In this document: piece after piece, positions 17,378-57,068 of the stretch | Position numbering within the stretch: the stretch's first letter is position 1 | How the letters are laid out: every line of letters begins with the position of its first letter | Origin: a virus | Strand: one strand, 5' to 3' | Length of the DNA stretch: 64,000 nucleotides | IMG/VR virus record: IMGVR_UViG_3300045988_171772 | Location: 64,001-128,000 of that record | The notes under the pieces: model-generated | The model's database searches: none | Seen by the model: the letters and a program-made list of their open reading frames with translations, nothing else | Told to the model about the DNA's origin: nothing | Made by a program: the position numbers and the translations under genes

Positions 17378-17390
17378 TTAAGGGGCTGTT
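17378..17390 (-). promoter_or_regulatory. AACA-N6-TAA motif (candidate late-type promoter)
   Basis: Minus strand reads GAGAAAAACAGCCCCTTAAAG, upstream of 14162-17347. Confidence 0.55.
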
Positions 17391-17420
17391 TTTCTCAATC
17401 GAATATGCGGGATAAAATTT

Positions 17421-17431
17421 CTATATATTAT
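17421..17431 (+). promoter_or_regulatory. CTATATATTAT motif (candidate early-type promoter)
   Basis: CTATATATTATTTAGGTAGAAAGGAG, 23 nt before ATG 17455. Confidence 0.55.
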
Positions 17432-17454
17432 TTAGGTAGAAAGGAGTAAAAGAT

Positions 17455-17886
17455 ATGTCGTATGGAAGTTTGTTAAAGTCACATATCTCTAAATGTATTA
17501 CAGTAAGAGATTGCTGTGAAGCGTTGAGCCATGTGTTAAACGAATTCTCGAAATCTTCAGATGAAGAGATTATCGGGGATAAGTTCTTATCATCGAAATC
17601 ATCCAATTCCAACTATGCCTATTGCGTAGCTCTCTGGGTAAAAGATCTCAGAGAGGAACCAAGAGACATCACAGAGGAATTGACTGATATAGCACTTGAG
17701 AGGTTGACTCTCTTTCCGGATGACCCTATGAGTCTTCTGGATAAGAAAATGATCAATCTCATCAGTCTGTCAAAGATCCGTCTTCATCCGGATCAAGACA
17801 TACCCAGATATCGTGAGAGATTCTCTAAGATGTATCCCGGAGAATCTCTCACGAAGTCTTTTATCAAATACGGATTAAAGGAGTAA
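17455..17886 (+). CDS. hypothetical protein
   Basis: 143-aa ORF with SD GAAAGGAG. First gene of the operon that contains the beta-prime fragment. Confidence 0.7.
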   Translation: MSYGSLLKSHISKCITVRDCCEALSHVLNEFSKSSDEEIIGDKFLSSKSSNSNYAYCVALWVKDLREEPRDITEELTDIALERLTLFPDDPMSLLDKKMINLISLSKIRLHPDQDIPRYRERFSKMYPGESLTKSFIKYGLKE

Positions 17887-17893
17887 ATAAACT

Positions 17894-18127
17894 ATGATTA
17901 GTTATAATGGAGTCTGGCTCGATCTTAAAGATATCGAGAGAATCACTGCCGAAAACAGTGGGCTCTCTTACTTCGGAACAAAATTCGCGGTCATGGCCGT
18001 GATGAAAAACAATGATCACTTCCTGATGGATTATGCTAAATCCTACAGTGAAGCGATCGAAAAGGCAATTGACCTTCAGAAGCAGATTGACTATCTGAAG
18101 CAGAAAGAGCTCGAGGAAAACACCTAA
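17894..18127 (+). CDS. hypothetical protein
   Basis: 77-aa ORF with SD AAAGGAG. Confidence 0.65.
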   Translation: MISYNGVWLDLKDIERITAENSGLSYFGTKFAVMAVMKNNDHFLMDYAKSYSEAIEKAIDLQKQIDYLKQKELEENT

Positions 18128-18269
18128 GAAGAAAAAGATGGGACTTACTATTACCAAGTTAGTATCCCATTCTTTTTTGTATTTTTGTATGCTCTGAAGA
18201 GGGTATACCGAAAACACTTACCATAAAATTGATGATTCTTATCCATTCAGCAAAGGATGTGATATTCAA

Positions 18270-19493
18270 ATGCCTACAATGCTGTCGGAGGACCAAAAGA
18301 AGAAACTCCTATCTATGCAGCAGAAAGATATGAGTGTATCTTTCATTACCAAGACCTTTACAAAGTCTTCTGTGAGAAAGATCGTCAATGGTAAGATTAC
18401 CTTTGTGACCAAGAATCCAGAGTTTGATCTCAGAGCTCTCTTCACTCTGAAGAAGGGTGAGTATATCAATACAGAAGATATCCAGACTTCTGTCGGTAGA
18501 TTTCTTTTCAATAAGCTCATTATTGAAAATACCATCTCCGATATTATCCCTGGTGGATACTATAACAAAGTATTCACCAAGAAATCCTGGGATGAATTGG
18601 CTGGATATATCTCTGCTTCTATCATGGAAGGAAAACTCTCTACAGAGAATCTGGTTCAGTATCTGAAGAAGTTTGAATTCTATGGATTGAAACTGGTTAC
18701 CTGTCTGAGTCCTTCTTTTGACCAGGCCGTGTTGAAACCTAATCCCATCGTCCAGAAAGAGAAGCAAAAGCTCTTGGATGAATTGGATGAAAAAGAGAAT
18801 CCAACTTTGAAAGATTATACAGACATTGAGGATAAACTGATCAATACTGCAAAGAATGCGATCGGTAAAGATCCTTCTATGTCTCTGTATGACTCTGGAT
18901 CTCGTGGTAACTTTGACAATGACTACAAGATCAATACGGTCATCGTTGGTCCTGTCAAAAATTGTGCCACTGGTGGATACGACTTTATGAAGTCTGATAT
19001 GATCGAAGGACTTCGTAAAGAGGATATTCCCAAAGCTGGTAACATGGTCGTTGGTGCTTCCTATCCGAAAGCGGTTGGTACTGCTGTCGGTGGTTATATG
19101 ACCAAAGAATTCTATGCAGTGTATCAGTCCATCATTCTCTCTGATGTAGAAGACTGTGGATCTAAGTATACACTCAAGATTCATCTTACCAAAGACAATA
19201 TTAATTCCTTCATGTATCAGTATATGATGGAAGGAGAAAAGAAAGTTTGTCTGACTCCTGATAATGCTTCTAAGTATATTGGGAAGACAGTTCACTTTAG
19301 ATCTCCCATGGGGTGTATTGGTCAGCAACTTTGCAGAACCTGTGCTGGTACCAGATTCGACAAACTGGATATCAAGAATGTCGGCCTGACTGCTGGTAAG
19401 GTATCCAATAACCTCATGAATAAACAGATGAAGAAATTCCATGAGATTCGAGTCAAACTCGATACTGTGGATCCTTCTACTCTTCTTATGTGA
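18270..19493 (+). CDS. multisubunit RNA polymerase beta-prime-like middle fragment
   Basis: 407 aa. DSGSRGNFDN...IVGPV resembles SGARGS...GMRG. AVGTAVGGYMTKEF resembles the bridge helix DTALKTANSGYLTRR. VHFRSPMGC...CRTCAG resembles VxxRS..C....C..CYG. The ORF ends at KKFHE, which corresponds to the trigger-loop RTFH. Confidence 0.75.
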   Translation: MPTMLSEDQKKKLLSMQQKDMSVSFITKTFTKSSVRKIVNGKITFVTKNPEFDLRALFTLKKGEYINTEDIQTSVGRFLFNKLIIENTISDIIPGGYYNKVFTKKSWDELAGYISASIMEGKLSTENLVQYLKKFEFYGLKLVTCLSPSFDQAVLKPNPIVQKEKQKLLDELDEKENPTLKDYTDIEDKLINTAKNAIGKDPSMSLYDSGSRGNFDNDYKINTVIVGPVKNCATGGYDFMKSDMIEGLRKEDIPKAGNMVVGASYPKAVGTAVGGYMTKEFYAVYQSIILSDVEDCGSKYTLKIHLTKDNINSFMYQYMMEGEKKVCLTPDNASKYIGKTVHFRSPMGCIGQQLCRTCAGTRFDKLDIKNVGLTAGKVSNNLMNKQMKKFHEIRVKLDTVDPSTLLM

Positions 19494-19502
19494 TAAAACT
19501 TT

Positions 19503-19552
19503 ATAGCCTATATAGACAATCTTTGAGATGCGTCTATATAGGCTATTTTTAT
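19503..19552 (+). terminator. intrinsic terminator
   Basis: ATAGCCTATATAGAC (19503-19517) pairs with GTCTATATAGGCTAT (19532-19546), then TTTTTATT. Confidence 0.85.
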
Positions 19553-19578: not shown

Positions 19579-19589
19579 CTATATATTAT
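19579..19589 (+). promoter_or_regulatory. CTATATATTAT motif (candidate early-type promoter)
   Basis: CTATATATTATTCATATAGAAAGAG, 47 nt before ATG 19637. Confidence 0.55.
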
Positions 19590-20765: not shown

Positions 20766-20786
20766 AAATAATTAGGTGATATCAAT

Positions 20787-22666: not shown

Positions 22667-24724
22667 TTATTTATTGACGTAGATGTCCACGATAGCGGTC
22701 TTGATCAGACGCTTGTGACTCAGCTCAATCGTCAGATGCAGAATACCCTGCTCCTGTTCCGCATCAGTGCTGGAGAAAGTAGCGGTAATGCTACGAACCT
22801 GAGCCTGAGCGTACTTGGTCAGAAGCTGCTCAGCATCACGATTGAAACGAGACAGGTCGGTGGTCTCCAGGAAGTTGTAAGAGTAGTTTCCGCACAGAGT
22901 CTCACAATCACGCTTGATATCCATGAGGATAAACATGTTGTTGCACTCAGACAGAGCACTCAGAATATCCTGACGAGTCGACTGCATCGCACGGATCATG
23001 ACGCTCTTGGGATTGATCTGCGCATAGTTGACACGATAAGTGGCAAGCTGATCCATAATCGCCGAATCGATCGCCTCATCATGGATGGGGAAGATCGAGT
23101 TGGAAACCAGCTCATCCATCTCGATGGTACCATAGGAACCACCAGCCAGAGGAATGTGCTTGCCATTGTTCTGGTCGAAGTTGGTGGGATAAGCACCAGC
23201 CAGCCAGTAGGTAGAAGTAACAGAAACGATCTTGCGAGAGATGGGATCACGGATCTTCATCTCATAGCCATCGACGAAGCAGTTCCGGTTGGCAGTGGCC
23301 GCATCGATATAGGTCAGACGAGTGAGGATATCCTCAGAAGTCTGCATACCAGTGCAGAGGTCAAAACCAGCCAGGCAGTCTCCGCGACGAGTGCACAGAG
23401 AAGCGATGGCATTCTTGATCGTGTAGTCATAGTTGGCATCCAGGATCAGATCCAGAGGATGACGAGTCTTGGAGTAGATGGTCTTATCGACAGAAGCGAC
23501 AAAACCCTTACTCGTATACTCTTCCTTGGTCTCCAGAGGAATCTCATCAGGATCGAAAGCATACATGTAGGCATTGTTGATGGCCTGAGTCACATCGCTG
23601 GCATTGCTGCCATCCGCCTTAACCTCAAACATACCATCGGTGCCACCCTGCATGTCGACACCAGTCAGATCGGTCAGAGCAACCACGTTCTCGGCAGAAC
23701 CAGAAGGCTCAACCTGATAACGATAGATCGCAGAGCGATTCGCCACCGTCACCTTGGTCTGCAGATTCTTGTTGATGCCCAGGAAGTAGTCGAAATTCGA
23801 AGCATCCAGCTTCATGTAGCTCTTCAGCACATTCCACGGATCATCCGAATTATCCTTCAGATTGGACATGCCAATCGAAGCCGCATACTTTTCCAGTTCA
23901 GGATTCGTCAGCTTAGAAAACACGTTGGTGTTATAAGCATTGGCGATTTCCTCGAAACCTTCGGGATTGGTGACGATCTGAATGTTGTCAGAACCAGTAT
24001 CAGGATCATTCACAACGCTGTCGGCAAACAGAGTAGCGGTGTCTGTCAAAGCGTTGTCATAGAAGCTGACCGGGATCTCTTCGATCAGAGTATCACTCTC
24101 GTAGACCTGGATGTAATAGTTCTTGTAGTCGTTCTCTCTATCAGCCCGAGAGTTGTTAGAGATACGAATACCCAGATTGTTACCATAGGCACCACGTCCC
24201 TTGGACGCAATGGCCATCAGGTAAACCATGGTATATCCTTCCGGGGGTTCAGGACGAAGTTCCTCAGCCTTCTGACCAAGGGTTTTGATATCAATCATAC
24301 CCTTCTTGGTCACAATGCTGGGGTCTTCACCATCCAAAACCTTCAGCTCACTGGCGGTGTAAAAACGAACACTCAGAACCTGAGTGCCTTCCACATCCAC
24401 CATCTTGTAAGCTGCGTAAACATACATGTTTGCACGAGTCGCATCGGGAGCGGCAATGCGCAAGCAATTCGCAGTCACAACACCGGTAGACAGAGCCCGA
24501 CGGCAGTTCATGAGAGGCTGACCGTAGCTCTTGATATCACCCATGCCGAATTTGGACACCAATTCATCGACAGTCTTGACGGCAGTCAGCTTTCCATCCT
24601 CGCCTCGGGGAGACTGAAAGATGAAGAGCATCCTGGTACCATCTGAAACACTGGCGCGCTGAACGGTGATTTGACTCTGGTCATAGATGTTTACCTCGGT
24701 ATGAGGAAAAGCATAATATGCCAT
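22667..24724 (-). CDS. contractile tail sheath protein
   Basis: 685 aa from ATG 24724 (GGAGG lies 8 nt upstream). N-terminal pattern V.IYDQS...GRGAYGNNLGIRI and the C-terminal region resemble sheath proteins. Size matches phiKZ-type sheaths as I recall them. 55-60% GC. Confidence 0.65.
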   Translation of the reverse strand: MAYYAFPHTEVNIYDQSQITVQRASVSDGTRMLFIFQSPRGEDGKLTAVKTVDELVSKFGMGDIKSYGQPLMNCRRALSTGVVTANCLRIAAPDATRANMYVYAAYKMVDVEGTQVLSVRFYTASELKVLDGEDPSIVTKKGMIDIKTLGQKAEELRPEPPEGYTMVYLMAIASKGRGAYGNNLGIRISNNSRADRENDYKNYYIQVYESDTLIEEIPVSFYDNALTDTATLFADSVVNDPDTGSDNIQIVTNPEGFEEIANAYNTNVFSKLTNPELEKYAASIGMSNLKDNSDDPWNVLKSYMKLDASNFDYFLGINKNLQTKVTVANRSAIYRYQVEPSGSAENVVALTDLTGVDMQGGTDGMFEVKADGSNASDVTQAINNAYMYAFDPDEIPLETKEEYTSKGFVASVDKTIYSKTRHPLDLILDANYDYTIKNAIASLCTRRGDCLAGFDLCTGMQTSEDILTRLTYIDAATANRNCFVDGYEMKIRDPISRKIVSVTSTYWLAGAYPTNFDQNNGKHIPLAGGSYGTIEMDELVSNSIFPIHDEAIDSAIMDQLATYRVNYAQINPKSVMIRAMQSTRQDILSALSECNNMFILMDIKRDCETLCGNYSYNFLETTDLSRFNRDAEQLLTKYAQAQVRSITATFSSTDAEQEQGILHLTIELSHKRLIKTAIVDIYVNK

Positions 24725-24795: not shown

Positions 24796-24808
24796 TTAAA
24801 AACTTGTT
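24796..24808 (-). promoter_or_regulatory. AACA-N6-TAA motif (candidate late-type promoter)
   Basis: Minus strand reads CGATAACAAGTTTTTAATATCG, 72 nt upstream of the sheath ATG. Confidence 0.45.
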
Positions 24809-24839: not shown

Positions 24840-25676
24840 TTACATAGAGAGGACCTTTTCCACAGGTGATTTGTTTTGTGTCGTGCCACTTCTTGTCATA
24901 TTGATAGAAGTGGTCAACATTTGGCTCATATCTTCAAAGGTCAATGCATTGAAGACGGATGTGTAAGATGCCACAGTTCGTACATTGGCAAAGACATAGT
25001 CATTTTCACCTGCTTTGCCAACTCCGATCTGTTTCCTAAAGGGGATCGTAGGATCATCTTTGCATCTGGCTTGCTCTGCAATGATAGCCTGAAGGATGAC
25101 CGAAGGAACACCGGGAGCGATTCCATTGATCTGAAAGTTCTTATTCCAAATTTCAAGGATATGGGAGTAGGGGATGGTATTTGGAATCTTCCCTCTCATC
25201 ATCATATTGAGGAATTTCTCACAGTTTCCGGAATCTTTGGGATTGTTGACTGGCATCATAATGGAACCACGGGTATATTGAAGCACGCTGTATTCCTGCT
25301 CTTCAATATCCCCTAAGGTTAATTTCATCTTTACAACATCATCCGGATAGGTCGTAATCGGAGATGGATAGTTAAAGGTCCGAATGGGTACCTTCTCTCT
25401 GATAGAGGGATCATCAGTGGGGAATAACCTCATATTGAAGATACCCACAGTTGTGACAGCACTGCCGTCCATAAAGGCAACTGCAGAATTCAATTGAGAT
25501 TCCTTCTCCACATTCTTGAATAACTCCACAGGGATATAGGCTTCCGCATAGGGAACATTCACCACAATGTTATCTCCGGATACAATAAACTCATTTGCCA
25601 AGTGTTTCTCACCTCGATTCTTACCAAAATGTTTCTGGGATAGATCTATAGCGGTATATCTTTTATTTTTACGCAT
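24840..25676 (-). CDS. hypothetical (virion?) protein
   Basis: 278-aa ORF. No SD before the ATG. Near-motif AACC-N6-TAA ends 15 nt upstream. Confidence 0.65.
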   Translation of the reverse strand: MRKNKRYTAIDLSQKHFGKNRGEKHLANEFIVSGDNIVVNVPYAEAYIPVELFKNVEKESQLNSAVAFMDGSAVTTVGIFNMRLFPTDDPSIREKVPIRTFNYPSPITTYPDDVVKMKLTLGDIEEQEYSVLQYTRGSIMMPVNNPKDSGNCEKFLNMMMRGKIPNTIPYSHILEIWNKNFQINGIAPGVPSVILQAIIAEQARCKDDPTIPFRKQIGVGKAGENDYVFANVRTVASYTSVFNALTFEDMSQMLTTSINMTRSGTTQNKSPVEKVLSM

Positions 25677-25691: not shown

Positions 25692-25704
25692 TTAATGCAA
25701 GGTT
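25692..25704 (-). promoter_or_regulatory. AACC-N6-TAA near-match to the late-type motif
   Basis: Minus strand reads CCAAAAACCTTGCATTAATAG, very like CCAAAAACACGGGTATAATAT at 36194. Confidence 0.35.
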
Positions 25705-26516: not shown

Positions 26517-26532
26517 CTAGAATAATATACAC
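26517..26532 (-). promoter_or_regulatory. TATATTATT core (early-type-like motif)
   Basis: Minus strand reads GTGTATATTATTCTAG, 56 nt upstream of ATG 26460. Confidence 0.4.
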
Positions 26533-27786: not shown

Positions 27787-28656
27787 TTAACCTTCGTCAT
27801 CCTCGCCAATAACAACAAAGTCAGACGGATTCTGAGTCGTCTCCATCAGATCTTTCTTGCCGTTATTCTCAGATCCAGGGACAGTAAATTCCTTCATCAG
27901 GCGATTTGACAAGTTAAAGCAAAGTACACCCTTCACGGATGTATCCTTCTTGAAAATCGTAGTAATTTGATCCACAAAGGTTACGGCTACCGGAGGTTCA
28001 CCCTCTTCGGAATCCATAAGATCTGCAGATTCATACATTGAATGGATCAGTGCCATATCCACTTCTTCCAGATCTGAATATTCAAACCATTTATCCACGG
28101 TCATATTATCCAGAATCCATGCGCAAATATCATAGATATCGGCGAGAATCACCGCATCTTCGATATTGAAGTTTTTCTTTTTGGAGATCGTAGAAGCATC
28201 TCTCTTATTGCGGTCATCTTCAAACACCTGGAAGATCTCCATCTTATTCTTGATGATGAATCGGAATAAGACATCCTCCATATGGGTAATAAAATTCAAT
28301 ACGAATGTATTGTAGAGGGCTTCTGTAATATCAGGAATATCATTCCGATGAGTCTCTTTCCACTCATCGGAAACTTTGATCGCAAATTTTGTTTCGATGG
28401 CATCCAGGAAGATACCACAGATGGAAAGAAAGCGATCCTGCACTTCGAGCAATACATCAGGATCCTCATTTTCTTCAATGATGCCCTCATATCTGGTTTT
28501 CAACGGAGAGAATTGGTCGACACTTGCGTCACCGACCATATCGAATCTCGGATCCAGGATCTGAGAATCTACAATCAGAGCAATTTCTTCAGTATCAAAG
28601 GTATCCAGAATTTCAGACAATTCCAGATTTTCATTATCAATCTGATATTCTGCCAT
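27787..28656 (-). CDS. hypothetical protein
   Basis: Start moved to ATG 28656 (MAEYQIDNEN), 9 nt after GGAGGA. 289 aa. Confidence 0.75.
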   Translation of the reverse strand: MAEYQIDNENLELSEILDTFDTEEIALIVDSQILDPRFDMVGDASVDQFSPLKTRYEGIIEENEDPDVLLEVQDRFLSICGIFLDAIETKFAIKVSDEWKETHRNDIPDITEALYNTFVLNFITHMEDVLFRFIIKNKMEIFQVFEDDRNKRDASTISKKKNFNIEDAVILADIYDICAWILDNMTVDKWFEYSDLEEVDMALIHSMYESADLMDSEEGEPPVAVTFVDQITTIFKKDTSVKGVLCFNLSNRLMKEFTVPGSENNGKKDLMETTQNPSDFVVIGEDDEG

Positions 28657-28781
28657 TTTGCGGCATCCTCCATTCACGTTGATTTAGGCACTTACCATTT
28701 TGTGTAAATGGAGCTTAAGAAATAATAATTCCATCGTAGAAACCTTAATGTAAGCAGACCCTTGCCTTATCACGATCAGAA

Positions 28782-31302: not shown

Positions 31303-31315
31303 TTAAAGGCCTGTT
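31303..31315 (-). promoter_or_regulatory. AACA-N6-TAA motif (candidate late-type promoter)
   Basis: Minus strand reads CCCTCAAAAACAGGCCTTTAACG. Confidence 0.5.
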
Positions 31316-34522: not shown

Positions 34523-34535
34523 TTAAACAGGTGTT
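34523..34535 (-). promoter_or_regulatory. AACA-N6-TAA motif (candidate late-type promoter)
   Basis: Minus strand reads TCTCTCAAAACACCTGTTTAACATC. Confidence 0.5.
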
Positions 34536-36199: not shown

Positions 36200-36212
36200 A
36201 ACACGGGTATAA
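36200..36212 (+). promoter_or_regulatory. AACA-N6-TAA motif (candidate late-type promoter)
   Basis: TCCAAAAACACGGGTATAATATT, 28 nt before ATG 36241. Confidence 0.5.
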
Positions 36213-38372: not shown

Positions 38373-38418
38373 ATGCAGGGACTTGAAAGAAAAAATCAAG
38401 TCCCTGCATTTTTATTTT
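38373..38418 (+). terminator. intrinsic terminator
   Basis: ATGCAGGGACTTGA (38373-38386) pairs with TCAAGTCCCTGCAT (38396-38409), then TTTTTATTTT. Confidence 0.85.
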
Positions 38419-38449
38419 GATTTCTCTAAAGGAAAGGAATGAATTTCCT

Positions 38450-38998
38450 ATGGAATTAAAATGCGTAAAAATGAATCCAGAAGCACAGGATTTATATCGG
38501 TCTACTTCTGGATCTGCTGGATATGATGTCTCTATCTGTGATAATAGAGAACTTGATATGATTCGCAAATGGGCCAGAGAGAATCCCAAGCAATTGATCA
38601 AGTATCCTAAGATGACTACCATTGGTGGAGCTGTTGGTGGTCAATATTATCCCACCTATCAATTCTCTATTGAACCTGGAAAAAGTGCTACCATTCATAC
38701 TGGATTGGCAGTAGAGATACCCGAAGGATATGTAGGTCTGCTGGTAGCTCGCTCTGGTATCTCCAATCACTATGGGATTACTCCCAAGGATTGTATTGGA
38801 ATCATTGATTCTGATTATAGAGGAGAATTGATGGTCCATCTGGTCAATGACTCGGATCAGGAGTATTTCCTCTCTAAGAATGAGAGAGTATGTCAATTGG
38901 TAATCACTCCGTATATTGCTCCGGATATTGTCTATGTTGACAAACTCTCGGAGACGGAACGAGGAACGGGAGGATTTGGATCTTCTGGATCCAATTAA
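38450..38998 (+). CDS. dut: dUTP diphosphatase with an insertion between motifs I and II
   Basis: Motifs GSAGYDV, VARSGIS, GIIDSDYRGEL, ERVCQLVI and RGTGGFGSSG. About 35 extra residues lie after motif I. Confidence 0.85.
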   Translation: MELKCVKMNPEAQDLYRSTSGSAGYDVSICDNRELDMIRKWARENPKQLIKYPKMTTIGGAVGGQYYPTYQFSIEPGKSATIHTGLAVEIPEGYVGLLVARSGISNHYGITPKDCIGIIDSDYRGELMVHLVNDSDQEYFLSKNERVCQLVITPYIAPDIVYVDKLSETERGTGGFGSSGSN

Positions 38999-42909: not shown

Positions 42910-42922
42910 TTACGAAGGTGTT
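42910..42922 (-). promoter_or_regulatory. AACA-N6-TAA motif (candidate late-type promoter)
   Basis: Minus strand reads AGCCTCAAAAACACCTTCGTAATC, 26 nt upstream of ATG 42883. Confidence 0.55.
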
Positions 42923-45900: not shown

Positions 45901-48900
45901 GACCTTGCTTCCGTTGGTACTTGCCCACTTTGCTGTAGTGAAATCTGCCGCCTTCTTTGTTTTTGTAGCCAAGAATCCTGCGCCTTTTTGAGCCAGGCCA
46001 GTCAGGCCTCTTCCTACAGTGGCAGTACCCTTACCAACAGCTGCAGTTGCTTTACCGAATTTTTTGATAGATTTGACAATCGGAATATGATCGGTTACAA
46101 AATCGACACCTTTTCCTACCCAGGAAAGCGCTTTACCGGCTTTACTACCCTTGACAGCAGCTTTCGCAGCTCCATAAGCGTTCGATGCCTTAACACCGAC
46201 ATCGTGAACGACATCAGCAGCTGTCAAAACTGCCCCACCGGCTTTATTCACAAGAGTACCACCGGCTTTGAAACCAGCTCTTGCTAGATCTCCATCTGTA
46301 CCAGTAACTGCAGTTTGAGCTGCCTTCCTTCTGACAAAATTCGGAATCATCATGCCTCTTTCAGTATTGACGGTAGCAGTAACGACTTCGTTACCATTTT
46401 CGTCAACTCTGGTACCTGCACCGACATAGTCAGGATTCAACTCTTCCATTTCTTCCTTGGTGAATTCTTTAGTGTCTCCACCAAGGACGAATTGACCGAG
46501 GAAATCACCAACCTTATCTCCGATACCTTCAATACCATCCATGATGGCACCACCGATACCTTTTGCAAGAGCACCACCGAGAGAGATAACCGCTTTACCA
46601 AGTACCTCTCCCAAAGTACCGATCAGTTTTCTACCAGTCTCAGAGTTCAGAAGAGCAGCCACAGTGGTAATACCACCAATAGCAAGACCAGCTTTCTTGA
46701 GGATATCCCCAATTCCGCCTTCTTCCTCTTCTTCCTGAGCAACCGCGTCACCTTCAACAGGTTCTGCCTTACCAGGTTCTTCATCTTCTTCACCGGTAGA
46801 ATCCTTCACTTTATCTTTACCCTGAGCCTGAATAGAAGCAGTTTCTTCTGCTTCTCTCGCTCTTCTCTGAGCATCCGCAGCATCTGCTTTGTCCTCATTA
46901 GCCGCAGCAGTCTTTCTTCTATGCTCAGTTTCGGCGATCTCAGCTTTATTTTCTTCTTCTTGCTGCTTAGCTTCTTCAGCCTGATCCTGCATCTTTTGCT
47001 TTTTCTTCTCAATAGCAGCATTGACAGCATTGATGATAGCAGAAGCTTTATCAGAAGCAGTATCAATCAGAGATTCATCCAGAGGAATACCAAGAGTAGC
47101 AGAGATTTGACCCAAAGCAAGAGCAATCTGATTCTTACGAGTCGCTTGTGCTTCTGCTTTTTCTTTCTCTTCTTCTACCTTCTCTGCAGCAATACGGTCA
47201 CGTTCTTGGAGCTCTTTCTTGAAGGCCTCCTGGTTCTTCATCCACTTATCAAAATCTTCTTTATTCTCGATTCTGTTATAAGTTTCATCGATGATGTTAC
47301 CTTCGGCATCCCGTTCAAGATACTGCTCAACGTCTTTCCGTCTCTTTGCATACTCTTTATCAGTCAGATCCTTAGCAGCGTAAGCATCCTTCCGATTATA
47401 TTTACTGAGCACACTATCGAGACGATTTTGTCTCTTACTATTCTGCTTTTCTGCACGATATTTGGCAAATCCAGTCAGGCCAGCAAGAGCTTGCTCTTTA
47501 TTATTAATGAATTTCTGGTAATTCTTTCCGATATACTCATTGAGAGCATTGGGGTCGATCTGACCATTCTCATCTCTCGGAAGAGCATTCCAGGCTTTAT
47601 CCTTGACATTACCGTTTCGATCCTTAGGAAGCAATTCTTCCATAGCAGCTTGTCTTTCCATAGGATCGACACTCTGCATTCTAGACTGAATATCATCCAA
47701 TCTATCTTTCTCATCTTGATACTGAGCTCCATAATAGGATTCAGCACCCTGAGCCATAGAAGATTTAAATGCTCCGATTCTAGCACGAATTCCACCCTTC
47801 TGAGTGACAGCGGATTTCGCACTATCCTTCAGATTTCCTAAGAGACCATGTCTAACATAACCAGCTCTAGCTCCCCAACGAGCATTCCTTCTCGCTCGTC
47901 TCTGACCTCTGAGGTTCTTTAAGAACTCAAGAGGATTCTCTGCATTTCTACTATTCCAGAGATCAGCGATGAGTTGAGTCGGTTTCGCTGCAATCCATGT
48001 AGCAGCTTTAGCAGCAGTCTTCAGTGCGAACGCTCCACCTTTGACAGTGGCACCCAACATAGCACCGGTAATCTTGACAATCCCATTATTGAGAGCCTGC
48101 ATAGGATGGGTAATAATGGAAATCACATTCTTACCAACATTCTGGATGGTTTCAACCATGGACTTTGTCACAGGATTTTTCAGTCCCATGTCTCTGAAGG
48201 CGGCTACAATAGGAGCAAACTGAGCTTTCGCATAGCTTGCAACTTCATTCTTGACAGAGTCAAAAGAAGACTTCAGAAGATTCTTTCCTTCTGTCTGAAG
48301 CATGTTTGTCCACTGACCGACCATACCAGTCTTCTCAACATGGACAACTCCATTTTCATCTACTGTCTTTGATCCAAAGAAGAGTCTCTTGAAATCAAAT
48401 CCAGTAGTAGCGATACCCACAGTAGCACCAAGAATGGCACCACCAATAGGACCACCGGGAAGGAAGAGAGAACCTAAGACTCCACCAATACCTGCGCTCA
48501 TAGCAGTTCTCTTGGTAAAACCTACCTTAGCTTTGATCTTCTGCCACAGATTTGCTGCGATTTCCTTACCATCTGTAAAGACATCTTCCACCGCTTCCGC
48601 AGATTTATTCAGCTCATCAATAGCGATATTGATCGAGGCCTTGGTATCTTTCTCTCTATTCTTATCCTCGGATCTTCTTCTAGAAGCTTCGTTGGTATTG
48701 GATCCAGGTCTTCTTGCATTCTGGTTATTGGCTCTACGAGCAGGAGCACCACCGAGTCTCTCACCATTACCAAGAGCTCCATTATCATTATTGGTATTAT
48801 CAGAAGGAGCATTCGGATCCTTACCAGTCATTACCTGAGTGGATTTATCTCTCACCTTCTGCTTGAAGGTACGAGTATCCTTAGGCTTCTTCTTGATTTC

Positions 48901-51318: not shown

Positions 51319-51352
51319 TTATGCTTCACCACGCTTTCTTTGGCTTTAAGCA

Positions 51353-51365
51353 TTAAAAAGCTGTT
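51353..51365 (-). promoter_or_regulatory. AACA-N6-TAA motif (candidate late-type promoter)
   Basis: Minus strand reads ATTTTAACAGCTTTTTAATGC, 34 nt upstream of the TTG at 51318. Confidence 0.45.
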
Positions 51366-51401
51366 AAAATAGCGCATTTTGAGGGCCTAGGAGCTTATTA
51401 T

Positions 51402-51469
51402 GAGAAATTTAAATGAGGATACCCAGATATGTCAGTGTATGACATCGGATATCCTCATTTAAATTTCTC
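51402..51469. repeat. nested long hairpin H1
   Basis: 20-bp perfect arms GAGAAATTTAAATGAGGATA (51402-51421) and TATCCTCATTTAAATTTCTC (51450-51469), with an apical ATGTCA/TGACAT stem. No T-run follows. Confidence 0.85.
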
Positions 51470-52885
51470 ACAATCAAATCCATCAAGAGAACCTACTCCT
51501 ACAATCATCCCGCCTATCTATATCAATGGGAAGATCTTCTTCCTTCTCCTATCTACTATCTAGATGATCAGGATACTCAAAGAGATTCTCTTCTGTATGA
51601 TAATCCTATAGAATTACTATCTTCTCCTCTATATAGAAGATCTGTCTTCTGGTACCATGAATTTCTATAGTATCTATTTCATTCTCGTTGACTTCCTATA
51701 GAAAAATACAGGGTCTATTTCCAAAATCCTTACTAGAGATACATCCTTACTCATGAAGGAGTATCCTCCATCTCTATAAAGAGTCTCTTCCTTTCCTCTG
51801 ATATCCATCTATAAGAAATATACAAACTTTCTATCCAGAGATTCTATTTCTATATCAATCCTTCCAGATTCTAGATCCAGGTAAGGGTGTCAGTGCTCAT
51901 GAAATATGTCTCTTTATCAATAGTCTGATATCGATCTCTATCTATAAATATTCCACTTTCGAATATCTCTATTAGATATCATCCTTCATACGCATTCTAT
52001 CTATATCCTAGAATTCGAGTGCCACAACAAACGATTCCTATTCTATAAGAAGAATTTGTATCTGGATGAATCTATCTATCGATATTCTAATCATAGGATC
52101 TCTATAAGATAAAAAATCAGTATTCTCGTTCTATTCATATCGATCCATATCTCATTTCTTAATCACACTATCTATCACTAGAATCCTTCTTGATTCATAA
52201 GAGACAGAATATCCTTCTAGAAGAATTTCTATATCCTCATAGAAGATAAGAGATTCCATTCTGATTCTCTCTATAAAGAAGATTCCACTCTTTCATTTTG
52301 GAATCTATCTCTATTGGAGATTTCTTCATAGTCTCTATACTTCTCTATCCTCAGTCTAAGAGAATGCCTTTGATTCTATAGAAATCTGATAGTAGATTCC
52401 TTCTCTATCTATAAGAATTGATTCAAGCAATCTATCGATATCAAATTCCAAGTCTCTCTTCTCATCCTTCTTCTAGTATAATAGAAAAGAATTCAGGTTC
52501 TCTTCTGCTATCCATAGAATCAGATTCAGAAAGTAGGATTTGTATTCTATTAGCATTTCTTCAATTGTGAGAATCTAAGAAATATTTTGTATATAAAAAA
52601 GACCAGGTATAATACTTAGTCTACATCTGAGAGGAATTGATCTAAGAAATCTATCAATTTGTATTCTATCCAACCAGATAGAGTACCACTCTATGATCAG
52701 ATAGAATAGTACCTCTCAGAAGGAAGGTGTAGATTCTTCATCTATCTTATTAGACTTCTCCTACTGATCGATCCACCTTCTGGAATTATCTCAGATAATC
52801 TCTTATATAGAGCTGAGACAATCGACACCATGAGTACCACTCATATGTCAATCGATTATGATTATGTCTCTCTTTAAGGAAAAAT
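51470..52885. other. 1.4-kb ORF-free, G-poor (plus strand), CTAT-rich tract
   Basis: No ORF of 60 aa or more in any frame. Hand counts give about 5-12% G against about 25% C on the plus strand. Dozens of CTATA/CTATC/TCTATAAG words with no regular period. Confidence 0.8.
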
Positions 52886-52930
52886 AAAGGATACCAGAAA
52901 TACAGAGATTCCCAGTATCCTTTATTTTTC
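52886..52930. terminator. bidirectional intrinsic terminator
   Basis: AAAGGATAC (52886-52894) pairs with GTATCCTTT (52915-52923), flanked by an A-run and a T-run. Confidence 0.65.
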
Positions 52931-52942
52931 CTTATTTAGACT

Positions 52943-53236: not shown

Positions 53237-53803
53237 TTACTTCTTCTTGATGTCCTTCATCCAGGCCCGGGTGGTGTTCTTCGCCTTGACGATGCGGTGT
53301 TCCTTGGTGGTGACCACATTGCCAGTCGGGACAGATTCATAGGTACCGTCATCCTTCTGGACGATCTTGGTGGTTTCCTCAACCTTCTCAGGAACGGTCT
53401 CCAGACGGACAGACACGCGGGAGATGTCATCACCGATCTGAGGCTTGACCTTGGCACGACCAGTGCTCAGGTAGGCAGCCTCAGCCGCATCCGCAGCATT
53501 GTTGAAAGCCTCGCCATAGGACTTGGTGAAATCCAGCTTGCCAGCCAGAGCCGCAGTCTCGGCACGATCCAGGCCCATAGCCTTGCCGACGACAGAAGCG
53601 GTCGCATCACGGAAATCCGCAATGGGCGTAGTGGTGGTGGTCTCGACGGAGCCATTACCATCTTCCTTGTAGGCCGGCATCTGGAAATCGGGCGTATTCA
53701 GAATGTTGGCGGTGACTTCCGCCGCAACGCCAGAAGAATGACCACGGGTAGTGGTGGACTCTTTCAGACTATCCAGATATTTCTGGAATTCGATTGAATT
53801 CAT
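53237..53803 (-). CDS. hypothetical protein (very GC-rich, probably abundant)
   Basis: 188-aa ORF with SD ACAGGAGGAA. About 60% GC. Ala/Thr-rich. Confidence 0.7.
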   Translation of the reverse strand: MNSIEFQKYLDSLKESTTTRGHSSGVAAEVTANILNTPDFQMPAYKEDGNGSVETTTTTPIADFRDATASVVGKAMGLDRAETAALAGKLDFTKSYGEAFNNAADAAEAAYLSTGRAKVKPQIGDDISRVSVRLETVPEKVEETTKIVQKDDGTYESVPTGNVVTTKEHRIVKAKNTTRAWMKDIKKK

Positions 53804-53915
53804 AAGATATTCCTCCTGTTAGAGTTGAATTACGGTCTTCATACCTGAAAACCTTTAATATGATATACTCAGGGATATTTGAATTTACCTATCCAAACAC
53901 CCCTGAGTATTCCTC

Positions 53916-55211
53916 TCATTGTGTAACAGGACCGGGCGATTCTCCAGACTGAGTTTCTTCACTCTGGAGCCTCTGATAATCCGTCGGAGCCCGATTCACT
54001 TCCTCACGGTTGTAGGCATTGATCGGAGTTCCCGGATTGGTAGGATACGGAGTCTCTTCCTTGGGAGTCTGCTCATGGGCAGCTTCCTGCTCACGAGTCC
54101 TCTGAAGAATCTCTGCAGTGGTCGGCACTCCTGCGATCTTAGGATCATTCGGAGTATACGGAACCCCATTCATCATGTCCGCAATGTCACCGAACTGGGG
54201 GCCATTATAGGGTTCCTGAGGATCCTGACCATAATAAGGACGACCAGGACGAAGATTCGGAGTCTGATCCTCATATTCATCCTCGCCATCGAAATCGTCG
54301 ATGCGATCTTCCAGATCTCCAACCTTACGGCCAAGAGCCTGAATCATCTGAAGGATCTTTTCCTCTCCGGGACTAACCTGGATCTTCTGGGCTGCCTGAG
54401 GAGGATTTGCATACATGGGATTGGACTGGGGATTCTGACGATTCTGATTCATGATCATCTGAGCCAGAGTGTTGATGCTCTTCTCGATGTTCTCGAACCG
54501 TTCGTCATACTCATTCCCAGAGTCATCCTCACCGAAGTCGAGATTGTCCATATCATAGTCGTCCATATCGAAGGGACGCTGACGACGAGGACGGAATTCT
54601 TCAAAGTCGAAGTTATACGGATCCTCTTCCATATCCCAGGAGACATTCCCGATCGTACCACGATCAGCAAAGTTCTTGAGAGCAGCAAAGCGATCCTTAT
54701 AATCATCGACATCCGAACTCCGGATATTCAGATTATCCTGAAGACCTTCGATGGCATCCCGATACCGCTTATTCAGCCACTTCATCTCATCCTGAGACTT
54801 GTTGATCCGCTTATTGTGCTTAGACTTCTGATCGACACGAAGAGTACCACCAGTGGAAGCCAGCTTCTTCTGAGCTTTCTTGATGACCTTCTTCAGCTGA
54901 TCCTTTCTCTCCTGGACATCGACCAGAAGAGTCATGACCTCATAATAGGTATCATCACTCAGGAGAAGCCAAAGCTCTTTGATGCCGATCTCGTTAAAGA
55001 CCTGGACCACCTGGGACATCGTCTTGCAAGAGGCAGACCTTCTCGCAAAAGATTTGATCCCATACAGATCACGGAATACTCGATCCACATATTGAATTCG
55101 AGTGCAGGCCCCAGTCCGATCACAGCAAAGTTTCCGGATCCGATTCAGCATCGTCCGAATCAACCTTGCTGCTTTGGATCTTGGGGTCGTCGTTTTCCTA
55201 GAATCACTCAA
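53916..55211 (-). CDS. hypothetical protein with Pro/Gln-rich C-terminus
   Basis: 431-aa ORF with a TTG start 8 nt after AAGGAGGG. Confidence 0.7.
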   Translation of the reverse strand: MSDSRKTTTPRSKAARLIRTMLNRIRKLCCDRTGACTRIQYVDRVFRDLYGIKSFARRSASCKTMSQVVQVFNEIGIKELWLLLSDDTYYEVMTLLVDVQERKDQLKKVIKKAQKKLASTGGTLRVDQKSKHNKRINKSQDEMKWLNKRYRDAIEGLQDNLNIRSSDVDDYKDRFAALKNFADRGTIGNVSWDMEEDPYNFDFEEFRPRRQRPFDMDDYDMDNLDFGEDDSGNEYDERFENIEKSINTLAQMIMNQNRQNPQSNPMYANPPQAAQKIQVSPGEEKILQMIQALGRKVGDLEDRIDDFDGEDEYEDQTPNLRPGRPYYGQDPQEPYNGPQFGDIADMMNGVPYTPNDPKIAGVPTTAEILQRTREQEAAHEQTPKEETPYPTNPGTPINAYNREEVNRAPTDYQRLQSEETQSGESPGPVTQ

Positions 55212-55232
55212 TGGAGTTTCCCTCCTTTCTTC

Positions 55233-55835
55233 TTAGTATTCATCATCACCGATATCGATGAAGTCATCGGGGATCTCGATATCATCCATATCGTCTCCGA
55301 TCATCTCATCCAACTCATCGGGATGACGTTTCTTCTCTTTCTTTGGTTTGTTATCACCCAGAACGGTATTGGCCGGCGTTGCAATCTCCTTAAAGGGATC
55401 ACCAATGCCATGCTTGTCCAGGAATGTATCGCCGATCCGACTAATGTCCCTGGGAGAAAGCTCCCCAACATCTTTCAGCTGCTCAGCAACGAAATCCCAG
55501 ACATTCTTCGCAATGACGGAATCTTTGGTCTTGCCAATATCCTTCATCACGATTCCAATCGCAGCCCCTCTCATCGAATTCAGACGGCGGACAGACTGCG
55601 GATAGTCCTTGCATTTCTCGACCACTTCATCGATCTGGTCATTGATCGCCTTCTTATCATAGAAGGTAATCGGATCCCAACCAATAGCAGTCTCGAAAGC
55701 TTCACTCATTTCAACGGGATCATCCTTCGGGGTGGTAATGGCATAGAGAGCATCGAAGTTTTCCTTGAAGCTCTCCTCATCGTGCACTGCCTGGACAGCA
55801 GTGATTTGATCAAGAAATTCAGATAAGCTTTTCAT
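55233..55835 (-). CDS. hypothetical acidic protein
   Basis: ATG 55835 (MKSLSEF) lies 8 nt after GGAGG. 200 aa. Confidence 0.7.
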   Translation of the reverse strand: MKSLSEFLDQITAVQAVHDEESFKENFDALYAITTPKDDPVEMSEAFETAIGWDPITFYDKKAINDQIDEVVEKCKDYPQSVRRLNSMRGAAIGIVMKDIGKTKDSVIAKNVWDFVAEQLKDVGELSPRDISRIGDTFLDKHGIGDPFKEIATPANTVLGDNKPKKEKKRHPDELDEMIGDDMDDIEIPDDFIDIGDDEY

Positions 55836-55971
55836 AAAAGGCACCTCCGTGATTGCAGTAGAAGAATGTAGTTATTCTTCATCACTTGTGTGTTATACCC
55901 TTTATGACATTTAAAGTATTTCTGATGCTGGTCCGTCGATCTATCCAACACCAGTTTCTCATGAATCCAAT

Positions 55972-55985
55972 ATAATTATATATAG
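55972..55985 (-). promoter_or_regulatory. CTATATATAATTAT variant of the early-type motif
   Basis: Minus strand reads AAATTTCTATATATAATTATATTGG, upstream of gene 55233-55835. Confidence 0.35.
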
Positions 55986-56049
55986 AAATTTTCTCATTCT
56001 CCGAGTTGAGATTTATTGACTTCTGGAGAATGAGAAAAAGACAAAAGAA

Positions 56050-56088
56050 ATCCCTCCATAATGAGTTTTGATCTCACTATGGAGGGAT
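56050..56088 (-). terminator. intrinsic terminator for a minus-strand transcript from 56.1-57.0 kb
   Basis: 11-bp stem ATCCCTCCATA (56050-56060) pairs with TATGGAGGGAT (56078-56088), followed on the minus strand by TTCTTTTGTCTTTTTCTC. Confidence 0.7.
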
Positions 56089-56140
56089 TACCAACCGGCT
56101 CGTGCTTCACCTTTGTTCCAATCGTACATAGCTTGGCCTC

Positions 56141-56587
56141 CTAACCTTGATGTATTTTAACATCTGGCGTATGACATAACGTACAAACACGCATGGGATA
56201 GTATCGCAAGAACGCGTTCAAATCATGGCTAGCAATGGACTTGTACGAAACAGCCAAACATAGGAAGTCCCAGATGAATAAATCGATCCAGTATAAGATC
56301 CATTGCTGGCCATATTCACCAATGCGCAATCGTCTTGACATAGCATCAAGACGCCGTTGTAACGGGTCATATGAAAAGACGTAACGTGTCCTTTGTTTTG
56401 AGTATACCTCACAATGACTTATGGAAATGAAGAGATGAAATAGAATGAAGCCAGTTTCCATGAATGGACCTATCGCGATCTCATCGCGAGATGATTCCTC
56501 ATATACTGTCATGAAAATTAGGAGTTGCGCATAAACAGGATAGCGGCATATAATAATGCGGCGATTATGCGATGTAAATGATACCAA
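56141..56587 (-). CDS. doubtful ORF (hydrophobic, CpG-rich, no SD)
   Basis: 148 codons from a TTG with no SD. Codon usage (CGC, GCG, CCG) is unlike neighbouring genes. Its TAG overlaps the SD of a 13-codon ORF. Confidence 0.2.
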   Translation of the reverse strand: MVSFTSHNRRIIICRYPVYAQLLIFMTVYEESSRDEIAIGPFMETGFILFHLFISISHCEVYSKQRTRYVFSYDPLQRRLDAMSRRLRIGEYGQQWILYWIDLFIWDFLCLAVSYKSIASHDLNAFLRYYPMRVCTLCHTPDVKIHQG

Positions 56588-57055
56588 TTGGATCCAATAT
56601 CAATATCTCGGCTTTCTGCATATGCCTCCATGTACCAAACCAAAGATCTATGAATTACTACAGCTATCGGACAAGCCGGAACATGTCAACGGCTCTAGTC
56701 GGCAGGACATGGTGATCAACCGCCAGACGTTACAAAGCGATCCTGTAATTGCAATCACAGATACTATTCAAGGTTATCCTCATTCTCGTTTTCTAAGAAT
56801 AAGTGCAGCATGTCCCTAGGAGTAAAGAATGATAGAAGCACGAAAACCTAAGATAGACTTTTGGATATAACTATCACATGAGGTTGTGACTACCTAGTGT
56901 GATAGCTAGATATCATACATACATTCCCATTCTGTATAGGAAGAATTACGGTCCATCATAATGACCAAGTAAGTCTTTTTGAGACTTCTCAATCATTACC
57001 TTTTATGTTACACGTCGTTACCATTTTTAATCATGCTTACAGACGAGGCTAGAAA

Positions 57056-57068
57056 AACACCCTGATAA
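57056..57068 (+). promoter_or_regulatory. AACA-N6-TAA motif (candidate late-type promoter)
   Basis: GCTAGAAAAACACCCTGATAAAG, 37 nt before ATG 57106. Confidence 0.5.

What the first reader, a model, noticed from the sequence alone, without database searches (positions are those of the whole stretch)
17378..57068. Recurrent AACA-N6-TAA motif upstream of structural genes (candidate late promoter)
Eight exact copies lie in the correct orientation 22-72 nt upstream of start codons:
- 17378-17390(-): GAGAAAAACAGCCCCTTAA
- 24796-24808(-): sheath gene
- 31303-31315(-): CTCAAAAACAGGCCTTTAA
- 34523-34535(-): CTCAAAACACCTGTTTAA
- 42910-42922(-): CTCAAAAACACCTTCGTAA
- 51353-51365(-): giant gene
- 36200-36212(+): CCAAAAACACGGGTATAA
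- 57056-57068(+): AGAAAAACACCCTGATAA
Near matches lie at 25692-25704(-) (AACC) and 28692-28704(-) (CACA). Six of the eight share an upstream A-tract (CTCAAAAACA). From memory, late promoters of the Bacillus jumbo phage AR9 non-virion RNAP have the consensus AACA-N6-TW. If that is right, this phage uses the same recognition logic. AR9 recognition reportedly needs uracil in the DNA, yet this phage encodes a dUTPase. That makes the comparison worth testing.
Basis: partly seen in the sequence, partly recalled or inferred. Interest (0 to 1): 0.75.

Follow-up and report, generated by a model that had tools for sequence, protein, structure and literature searches.

The report
AR9-type late promoters in gut jumbo phage
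A short DNA signal, (A-rich)AACA-N6-TAA, sits just upstream of the virion genes of an uncultivated 255-kb gut phage and its relatives, and almost nowhere else. It matches the late promoter of Bacillus phage AR9, but this phage probably does not have the uracil DNA that AR9's polymerase needs.

Summary
The window holds 11 exact AACA-N6-TAA copies, not 8. All 11 point toward a gene start 31-84 nt downstream, and a 12th lies in the 7 kb right of the window. In the sense-upstream space, 8 copies are seen against 0.5 expected (0 of 2000 shuffles). Outside the sites the motif is purged: AACA-N6-TA occurs 2 times against about 13 at other spacings. Only the N6 spacing sits upstream of genes in six relatives (81% down to about 29% protein identity). 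Orthologous sites keep AACA and TAA while the spacer varies.

The core equals the mapped AR9 late promoter, AACA-(6N)-TA/G. The phage's RNA polymerase beta subunit is closest to AR9/PBS1-like phages. An AR9-like early motif (TATATATTAT) precedes other, mostly small or unannotated genes. [quoted passage not shown]

Two things are not shown. There is no transcript data. No gp226-like specificity subunit was found in the 81 kb I could reach.

The dUTPase is canonical, and a relative that uses the same motif encodes ThyX. Uracil DNA is therefore unlikely, so AR9-type recognition may work here on thymine DNA.

Verdict: a new member of a known kind, and possibly a new variant.

The parts
5105..5117 (-). 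Exact site gaaaAACAACGGGATAA, 48 nt (AACA to ATG) upstream of gene 4095-5069(-). Its TAA is the stop codon of the preceding gene 5105-5797.
7524..7536 (+). Exact site agaaAACAAAACCATAA, 46 nt upstream of gene 7570-7986(+), inside the 3' end of gene 5888-7582.
8692..8705 (+). Spacing variant AACA-N7-TAA with an A-rich upstream (aaataAACAattgagaTAA), 77 nt upstream of virion structural protein gene 8769-10337. Candidate weaker promoter.
   Evidence: PHROG virion protein
17378..17390 (-). Exact site gagaaaAACAGCCCCTTAA, 43 nt upstream of the 1061-aa gene 14162-17347(-). It shares a divergent intergenic region with an early-type TATATATTAT box (17422-17431, +).
18213..18226 (+). Spacing variant AACA-N7-TAA (ccgaaAACActtaccaTAA), 57 nt upstream of gene 18270-19493(+).
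24796..24808 (-). Exact site without an A-tract (ccgatAACAAGTTTTTAA), 84 nt upstream of the tail sheath gene 22667-24724(-). The L003 sheath ortholog has the same variant (ccgctAACAACTTCTTAA).
25621..25633 (-). Exact site cagaAACATTTTGGTAA upstream of virion protein gene 24840-25601(-). The true start is probably the TTG at 25601, not the annotated ATG at 25676. The leader 'TAAgaatcgaggtga' is conserved in L003.
31303..31315 (-). Exact site ctcaaaAACAGGCCTTTAA, directly after a strong terminator hairpin (dG -26.3, z -6.4). The start codon of gene 30487-31284/31296(-) lies about 20-30 nt downstream.
34523..34535 (-). Exact site ctctcaaAACACCTGTTTAA, 78 nt upstream of gene 33054-34457(-). The orthologous site in L002 is at 18286(+).
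36200..36212 (+). Exact site ccaaaAACACGGGTATAA, 41 nt upstream of gene 36241-37443(+). The orthologous site in L002 at 16676(-) has an identical AACACGGGTATAA.
42910..42922 (-). Exact site ctcaaaAACACCTTCGTAA, after a terminator hairpin (dG -28.8, z -10.2) and 39 nt upstream of virion protein gene 41450-42883(-). In orthologs from L002 and L003, AAAAACAC and GTAA are invariant and the spacer varies.
51353..51365 (-). Exact site with a T-tract in place of the A-tract (gctattttAACAGCTTTTTAA), 47-65 nt upstream of the 2768-aa giant gene 42994-51300(-). ATTTTAACA and TTAA are invariant in L002 and L003.
57056..57068 (+). Exact site agaaaAACACCCTGATAA, 50 nt upstream of the RNA polymerase beta gene.
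57106..61320 (+). Multisubunit RNA polymerase beta-like subunit, 1404 aa, probably the virion polymerase. Its best hits are AR9/PBS1-like, Staphylococcus jumbo and phiR1-37 phages, and several are annotated as virion or viral RNAP beta. It has no phmmer hit to any phage RNA polymerase chain in the PDB, only weak hits to Thermus beta.
38417..38998 (+). Canonical trimeric dUTPase with all five motifs: AGYD, RSG, GIIDSDYRGE, RVCQL and RGTGGFGSSG. This bears on whether the DNA can contain uracil.
   Evidence: syntenic dUTPase in L002
17422..17431 (+). One of seven AR9-like early-promoter boxes, (c)TATATATTAT-N5-TA(A)G. The others are at 2373, 2737, 12551, 19580 and 62459 on (+) and 26522-26531 on (-). 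They precede small or unannotated genes.
   Evidence: AR9 early consensus AAATATATATTAT-(6N)-G

Best explanation
The sites are late-class promoters of the phage's own non-virion multisubunit RNA polymerase, of the type mapped in Bacillus phage AR9.

The element is a -11..-8 AACA box, usually preceded by an A-rich -14..-12. Six variable bases follow, C/G-rich at -7/-6. Then comes T(-1)A(+1)A(+2), with transcription predicted to start at the first A of TAA. Leaders would be about 20-73 nt, ending at a GGAGG-type ribosome-binding site.

By analogy with AR9, a sigma-like fifth subunit together with the beta-N subunit would read the complement of AACA on the template strand.

Early genes would use a separate AT-rich TATATATTAT promoter read by the injected virion polymerase, whose beta subunit is itself expressed from an AACA site.

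Shown here: the motif, its placement, its orientation, its spacing specificity, its conservation, its genome-wide avoidance, and the kinship of the polymerase. Inferred: that it is a promoter, where transcription starts, which enzyme reads it, and template-strand reading.
For: 1. The core is identical to the experimentally mapped AR9 late consensus AACA-(6N)-TA/G, with +1 at the last base (PMC5312081; PMC7598289).
2. In 81 kb of this genome, 12 of 12 exact AACA-N6-TAA copies lie 31-84 nt upstream of a gene start in the sense orientation. Eight are seen in the upstream space against 0.53 expected, 0 of 2000 shuffles. An unbiased gapped-motif ranking puts it 2nd of about 147,000.
3. The spacing is specific. 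AACA-Nk-TAA counts for k=0..13 are 4,2,2,1,3,0,11,3,0,3,6,5,3,5. In six relatives only k=6, and sometimes k=7, sits 25-120 nt upstream of genes: L002 4/5, L003 6/6, L004 2/2, L022 2/2, L023 6/9, L024 4/6.
4. The motif is purged elsewhere. AACA-N6-TA occurs 2 times outside the sites against 28.6+-5.0 in shuffles. The AACA tetramer occurs 221 times against 442 and ranks 8th of 256 for depletion.
5. In orthologous promoters the box and TAA are invariant while the spacer and flanks vary.
6. Downstream genes are the sheath, virion proteins, the giant protein and the virion-type RNAP beta.
7. Strong terminator hairpins sit immediately upstream of two sites, so transcription must restart there.
8. 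An AR9-like early motif is present upstream of other genes and in relatives.
9. Sigma-70-like sites are not enriched: 52 against 48.7.
Against: There are no transcript 5' ends for this uncultivated phage.

No gp226-family protein and no non-virion polymerase subunit was found in the window, its 17 kb of flanks or the relatives' loci. This used an HMM of 174 family members plus hhalign. About 175 kb of the genome could not be reached.

AR9's enzyme strictly needs deoxyuridine at -11/-10 of the template strand. This phage encodes a canonical dUTPase, so the recognition chemistry cannot be simply identical.

Two sites, the sheath and the giant gene, lack the A-tract.

Some apparent late operons have no exact site, for example 27787-28656(-) and 53237-55835(-).
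Confidence: 0.8

Rival explanations
1. The motif is a promoter, but a different enzyme reads it. Candidates are the host RNA polymerase redirected by a phage-encoded sigma or activator (as with T4 gp55 and TATAAATA), or the virion polymerase.
For: No non-virion polymerase or gp226-like gene was seen in the accessible 81 kb. One site (36200) contains TATAAT. The TAA-containing end resembles an AT-rich -10-like element.
Against: The core is identical to the AR9 non-virion polymerase motif. The polymerase is AR9-clade. In that clade both gene classes are transcribed by phage enzymes. A separate AR9-like early motif is already present for the virion enzyme. Sigma-70-like sites are not enriched. 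There is no conserved -35 element.
Confidence: 0.1
2. The element acts at the RNA level, as a processing site, a leader structure or a translational operator in the 5' untranslated region. It would not be a transcription start signal.
For: It is strand-specific and lies at a fairly fixed distance (about 30-85 nt) ahead of start codons. That would also fit a leader element.
Against: Two sites, and the L003 ortholog, follow strong terminator hairpins directly. Three lie in divergent intergenic regions where a promoter is required. The conserved parts are two short boxes separated by a variable spacer, with no conserved pairing. Avoidance of the motif on both strands across the genome fits a DNA signal better than an RNA one.
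Confidence: 0.05
3. It is a chance or compositional pattern of AT-rich intergenic DNA.
For: The whole-window count, 11, is within the shuffle range of 7.7+-2.7. Intergenic DNA is AT-rich.
Against: Zero of 2000 composition-matched shuffles of the upstream regions reach 8. All copies are co-oriented with the downstream gene. Only the N6 spacing behaves this way. The motif is conserved at orthologous positions in relatives down to about 30% protein identity.
Confidence: 0.01

Closest known systems
Late promoters of Bacillus phage AR9 (PBS1 group), read by the non-virion RNA polymerase with the gp226 specificity subunit
   Same: The AACA box at -11..-8 is the same, as are the six-base spacer and the T(-1) followed by a purine start. 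So are the position upstream of virion genes, the occasional N7 variants, and the coexistence with a TATATATTAT-type early promoter. The phage polymerase is of the same clade.
   Different: The consensus here is longer: an A-rich -14..-12, C/G at -7/-6, and A at both +1 and +2. TG and TAT ends are not used.

The motif is almost absent outside promoters, and AACA itself is halved. In 50 kb of AR9 there are 91 AACA-N6-T[AG] copies. Only 30 lie near gene starts, and AACA is not depleted (587 against 657).

This phage encodes a canonical dUTPase, and a relative encodes ThyX. Known uracil-DNA phages lack both (PMC7824862).
phiKZ late promoters (TATG, G = +1), read by the phiKZ non-virion polymerase with gp68 on thymine DNA
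   Same: It is also a very short element overlapping the start site, read by a phage multisubunit polymerase with a divergent sigma-like fifth subunit. The DNA contains thymine.
   Different: The sequence is different, and phiKZ has no -10-region box. phiKZ late promoters could not be predicted from sequence, whereas this motif can.
AR9 / MarsHill early promoters (AAATATATATTAT-(6N)-G; TATATTAT), read by the virion polymerase
   Same: The second motif in this window, (c)TATATATTAT-N5-TA(A)G, matches their core and lies upstream of small or unannotated genes.
   Different: It is a separate element from the finding. It serves as the early-class counterpart and as an internal control.

Membership tests
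AR9-type non-virion-RNAP late promoter | Consensus AACA-(6N)-T-A/G on the non-template strand | tested here: met
   The window has 11 exact AACA-N6-TAA copies and the right flank has 1. Only the N6 spacing is enriched. The consensus was verified in PMC5312081.
AR9-type non-virion-RNAP late promoter | Transcription starts at the purine after the T, 11 nt downstream of the first A of AACA | not testable with these tools
   No RNA data exist for this uncultivated phage. The position is predicted only by analogy.
AR9-type non-virion-RNAP late promoter | Located upstream of late (virion and morphogenesis) genes, and absent from early gene blocks | tested here: met
   Downstream genes are the sheath, three PHROG virion proteins, the giant protein and the virion-type RNAP beta. 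The 10-kb DNA-metabolism block left of the window has no copy.
AR9-type non-virion-RNAP late promoter | The phage encodes multisubunit RNA polymerases of the AR9/phiKZ kind (virion and non-virion sets) | tested here: inconclusive
   One beta-like subunit is present, probably from the virion set. No non-virion subunit was recognised in the 81 kb available. The rest of the 255.5-kb genome could not be fetched.
AR9-type non-virion-RNAP late promoter | A gp226-family sigma-like specificity subunit | tested here: inconclusive
   An HMM of 174 family members and hhalign found no homolog in the window, flanks L020/L021 or relatives L001-L004 and L022-L024. The synteny candidate 36241-37443 was rejected. 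The family itself is large, with 681 clusters in metagenomes, so a copy elsewhere in the genome is plausible.
AR9-type non-virion-RNAP late promoter | Recognition depends on deoxyuridine at -11/-10 of the template strand (uracil DNA genome) | not testable with these tools
   Base content cannot be read from the sequence. Indirect evidence points the other way. The dUTPase here and in L002 is canonical. ThyX is present in relative L023, which uses the same motif. Uracil-DNA phages lack both.
AR9-type two-promoter transcription scheme | A separate AT-rich early promoter (TATATATTAT core) upstream of early genes | tested here: met
   Five exact TATATATTAT copies are all intergenic and all point at a downstream gene. 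Variants occur at 12551 and 26529(-). The motif is also present in L004 and in front of the L023 ThyX operon.

The most novel reading that the evidence does not exclude
This lineage of uncultivated, largely gut-derived jumbo phages uses AR9-type AACA-N6-TA promoters on DNA that contains thymine or another non-uracil pyrimidine. If so, its sigma-like subunit is a natural counterpart of the engineered AR9 gp226 V206G mutant, which tolerates T at -10. Promoter specificity would then come from a longer consensus and genome-wide purging of the motif, not from the uracil requirement. AR9's uracil dependence would be a derived speciality of one branch, not a property of this promoter class.
Probability: 0.4. 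Interest if true: 0.75.

Novelty: new member of a known kind. Interest (0 to 1): 0.6.

Why it matters
Late promoters of polymerase-encoding jumbo phages are held to be unpredictable from sequence (PMC7598289; the MarsHill preprint). So far they are mapped in only a few phages. Here the AR9-type late signal can be read directly from sequence and carries over to a whole uncultivated clade.

That gives transcription-unit maps for metagenomic jumbo phages. It gives a criterion for correcting gene starts; two were corrected here. It gives a marker for late genes of unknown function.

It also sets up a sharp test of the AR9 mechanism. The phage and its relatives encode a dUTPase or ThyX. Either they make uracil DNA despite these enzymes, or template-strand AACA recognition works on thymine. 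The residue matching gp226 V206 in their specificity subunit should say which.

Tried and rejected
1. Whole-window enrichment. The count of 11 against 7.7 expected is not significant. I replaced it with placement, spacing and depletion tests.
2. Near-identical phage records. Megablast of 10 kb against 50,697 phage records found nothing.
3. Relatives in IMG/VR. The sheath protein and an alignment of the virion protein found none.
4. The gp226 specificity subunit.
   - tblastn of AR9 gp226 against the window found nothing.
   - Family HMMs of 10 and of 174 members found nothing.
   - hhalign of all 54 ORFs of 250-900 aa found nothing.
   - The synteny-based candidate next to the primase (36241-37443) was rejected (hhalign probability 0.1%).
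No lengths matched.
5. The near match at 25692 (AACC). I dropped it in favour of the exact site at 25633 once the gene start was revised.
6. A PWM scan for further strong sites. Nothing lies between the 11 training sites (12.5 bits or more) and the background (10.7 or less). This test is circular, so I used it only to list candidates.
7. Host sigma-70 promoters. They are not enriched.
8. Rfam families in the ORF-free gaps. Only hairpin noise turned up.

Full report
**What the window is**

The 64-kb window has no near-identical record among 50,697 phage genomes. Over the overlap I could check, it is 100% identical to a 255,520-bp metagenomic contig, ENA ERZ28621018 NIEL14-1_SAMEA2042913 scaffold_8.

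Its annotated genes include:
- a tail sheath, several virion proteins and a 2768-aa giant protein;
- an NAD-dependent ligase, a primase and RusA;
- a GH25 lysozyme and a dUTPase;
- a 1404-aa multisubunit RNA polymerase beta-like protein.

The best relatives of that polymerase, at about 29% identity, are the Staphylococcus jumbo phages, Listeria LPJP1, Yersinia phiR1-37 and Bacillus PBS1/AR9. Several of these hits are annotated as the virion enzyme. The window is therefore from a distant, uncultivated member of the AR9-like branch of polymerase-encoding jumbo phages.

**Checking the observation**

All eight reported sites exist as described. The window holds 11 exact AACA-N6-TAA copies. That total is not unusual in itself: 7.7+-2.7 are expected. 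The placement is unusual.

- Eight copies lie in the 4,550 nt of non-coding, sense-oriented upstream DNA. Dinucleotide shuffles of those same regions give 0.53, and 0 of 2000 shuffles reach 8.
- I enumerated all gapped 4-mer-N(2-10)-3-mer motifs without prior choice. AACA-N6-TAA ranked second of about 147,000 (p = 1.3e-10). It is the only top-ranked motif that is not purely AT.
Site 5117(-) sits 48 nt before gene 4095-5069, and its TAA doubles as the stop codon of the preceding gene. Site 7524(+) sits 46 nt before gene 7570-7986.
- Site 25633(-) lies 32 nt before a TTG at 25601 that has a GAGGTG ribosome-binding site. The L003 ortholog starts 34 nt after its own AACA and shares the leader 'TAAgaatcgaggtga'. 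The annotated ATG at 25676 is therefore probably an over-extension.
- A twelfth copie lies 43 nt before a 587-aa gene in the 7 kb right of the window. The 10-kb DNA-metabolism block to the left has none.

**Internal controls**

- Spacing. Counts of AACA-Nk-TAA for k=0..13 are 4,2,2,1,3,0,11,3,0,3,6,5,3,5. Only N6 stands out.
- Depletion. Outside the 11 sites, AACA-N6-TAA occurs 0 times against 7.3 expected. AACA-N6-TA occurs 2 times, against 28.6+-5.0 in shuffles and about 13 at other spacings. The AACA tetramer occurs 221 times against 442.
- AACA/TGTT ranks 8th of 256 tetramers for depletion, on both strands of coding DNA.
- In 50 kb of AR9 the picture differs. There are 91 AACA-N6-T[AG] copies, only 30 near gene starts, and AACA is not depleted.

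**Anatomy of the sites**

Aligning the 11 sites gives this pattern:
- A-rich at -14..-12 in 9 of 11 sites;
- invariant AACA at -11..-8;
- C or G preferred at -7/-6;
- T-rich at -5..-2;
- invariant T(-1), A(+1) and A(+2).

The sheath site and the giant-gene site lack the A-tract. Their variants (ccgNTAACAA... and ATTTTAACA...) recur in the orthologs of L003 and L002.

Two N7 variants with A-rich upstream sequence precede a virion protein gene (8692) and gene 18270. This mirrors the spacing variants reported for AR9.

Strong terminator hairpins end a few bases before the sites at 31315 and 42922 (dG -26 and -29, z -6.4 and -10.2). The L003 ortholog has the same arrangement. Transcription must restart at these points.

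**Related sequences**

Homologs of the virion protein 41450-42883 form a graded series in metagenomes. I fetched about 21-24 kb around six of them.

Number of AACA-N6-TAA copies lying 25-120 nt upstream of a called gene, in the sense orientation:

| Locus | Protein identity to window | Copies upstream / total |
|---|---|---|
| L002 | 81% | 4 of 5 |
| L003 | 50% | 6 of 6 |
| L004 | 37% (Hadza gut) | 2 of 2 |
| L022 | 33% | 2 of 2 |
| L023 | 32% | 6 of 9 |
| L024 | 29% | 4 of 6 |

- The fifth L002 copy precedes the giant gene, whose start is mis-called.
- All six upstream copies in L023 lie 38-43 nt from the ATG.
- Every other spacing gives essentially none.
- In orthologous promoters the boxes are invariant while the spacer and flanks change.

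**A second motif**

(c)TATATATTAT-N5-TA(A)G occurs five times exactly. All five are intergenic and point at a downstream gene. Variants lie at 12551 and 26529(-). The core equals the AR9 early consensus AAATATATATTAT-(6N)-G and the MarsHill TATATTAT motif. It recurs in L004 and in front of the L023 ThyX operon.

In the divergent region 17348-17454, one promoter of each class points each way. Sigma-70-like sites are not enriched.

**Interpretation**

The most economical reading is the AR9 scheme. An injected virion polymerase reads the AT-rich early promoters. A non-virion polymerase made during infection reads AACA-N6-TA promoters in front of virion genes, and these include the virion polymerase's own beta subunit. 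I put this at 0.8.

The promoter function, the start site at the first A of TAA, the identity of the enzyme, and template-strand reading are all inferences.

The main gap is the specificity subunit. An HMM built from 174 gp226-family proteins, and hhalign, found no homolog in the 81 kb of this genome I could reach or in the relatives' loci. The neighbour of the primase, which synteny with AR9 suggested, is not gp226. About 175 kb of the genome was out of reach with the tools available.

**The uracil question**

AR9's enzyme needs deoxyuridine at -11/-10 of the template strand. Val206 of gp226 excludes thymine at -10, and the V206G mutant accepts it (PMC9209446).

- The window's dUTPase has all five catalytic motifs, and its best matches are solved dUTPases. 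L002 has it at the same position.
- L023 uses the same promoter motif and encodes ThyX (Pfam Thy1, E = 2e-38).
- A comparative study states that uracil DNA requires the absence of both dUTPase and thymidylate synthase (PMC7824862).
- This phage assembles into contigs longer than 200 kb in many samples. That weakly argues against a DNA that standard library polymerases stall on.

So the DNA is probably not uracil DNA, although this is indirect.

If that is right, this clade reads an AR9-type promoter on thymine. The longer consensus and the purging of the motif elsewhere may supply the discrimination that AR9 gets from uracil. That last point is my inference.

As a side observation, the gp226 family is very large, with 681 clusters. 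Position 206 is Val in only 79 of the 174 sampled members, and Gly or Ala in 17.

**Novelty**

The promoter type is known from AR9. I found no paper in the held library that extends it to other phages. The literature says late promoters of these phages cannot be predicted from sequence.

I rate this a new member of a known kind. There is a substantial chance (about 0.4) that it is a thymine-compatible variant, which would interest people working on jumbo phage transcription.

Noticed in passing
window 2373-2382, 2737-2746, 12551-12558, 17422-17431, 19580-19589, 62459-62468 (+); 26522-26531 (-): There is an AR9-like early-promoter motif, (c)TATATATTAT-N5-TA(A)G. All copies are intergenic and point at small or unannotated genes. 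The core TATATTAT also appears in intergenic DNA of L004 and upstream of the ThyX operon of L023.
   Followed up: partly
window 61280-61624 (+), exon 2 at 61619-61846: A group I intron (Rfam RF00028, 75 bits) interrupts the RNA polymerase beta gene inside the conserved GDK...KG segment. A 75-aa second exon follows.
   Followed up: partly
window 51301-52942: A 1.6-kb stretch has no ORF over 50 aa. It lies just upstream of the giant-gene promoter and is packed with degenerate TCTATAGAA / CTATCTAT direct and inverted repeats, plus a 35-nt-arm hairpin at 51390-51481. It has no Rfam family. Syntenic ORF-free gaps exist in L002 (630-1545) and L003 (215-1508). It may be an origin or a non-coding RNA locus.
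   Followed up: partly
window 11523-13179, 55836-57105, 61847-62547: These are further ORF-poor stretches of 0.7-1.7 kb with several perfect short hairpins, for example 11533-11580 and 55989-56038. Their function is unknown.
   Followed up: no
proteins P0045-P0226 (gp226 family, not in the window): The AR9 sigma-like subunit gp226 has 681 clusters at 50% identity in public metagenomes. The TxYSDxxxW helix is conserved. The uracil-selecting Val206 is Val in only 79 of the 174 sampled members, with T 20, I 12, P 12, K 12, G 11, A 6 and S 4.
   Followed up: partly
L023 8451-9647 (-): A relative at 32% identity in the virion protein encodes a 398-aa ThyX (Pfam Thy1, E = 2e-38). The gene sits behind a TATATTAT early-type box, and an AACA-N6-TAA site lies immediately downstream of it.
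   Followed up: yes
window 24840-25676 (-); L002 10001-11512 (+): Two gene starts appear over-extended by automatic calling. The promoter motif lies inside the annotated 5' end, and a start codon with a ribosome-binding site follows it: TTG 25601 in the window, and about 10079 in L002.
   Followed up: yes
whole window: The palindromic tetramers ACGT, TTAA, CTAG, CGCG and GCGC are among the most depleted, at 0.18-0.34 of the mononucleotide expectation. This suggests restriction avoidance.
   Followed up: no
window 63747-63822 (-): A tRNA-Thr (TGT) gene is present. The L004 relative appears to have a tRNA-like sequence on the minus strand just upstream of its virion protein gene. I read that by eye from the sequence and did not check it with the tRNA tool.
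   Followed up: no
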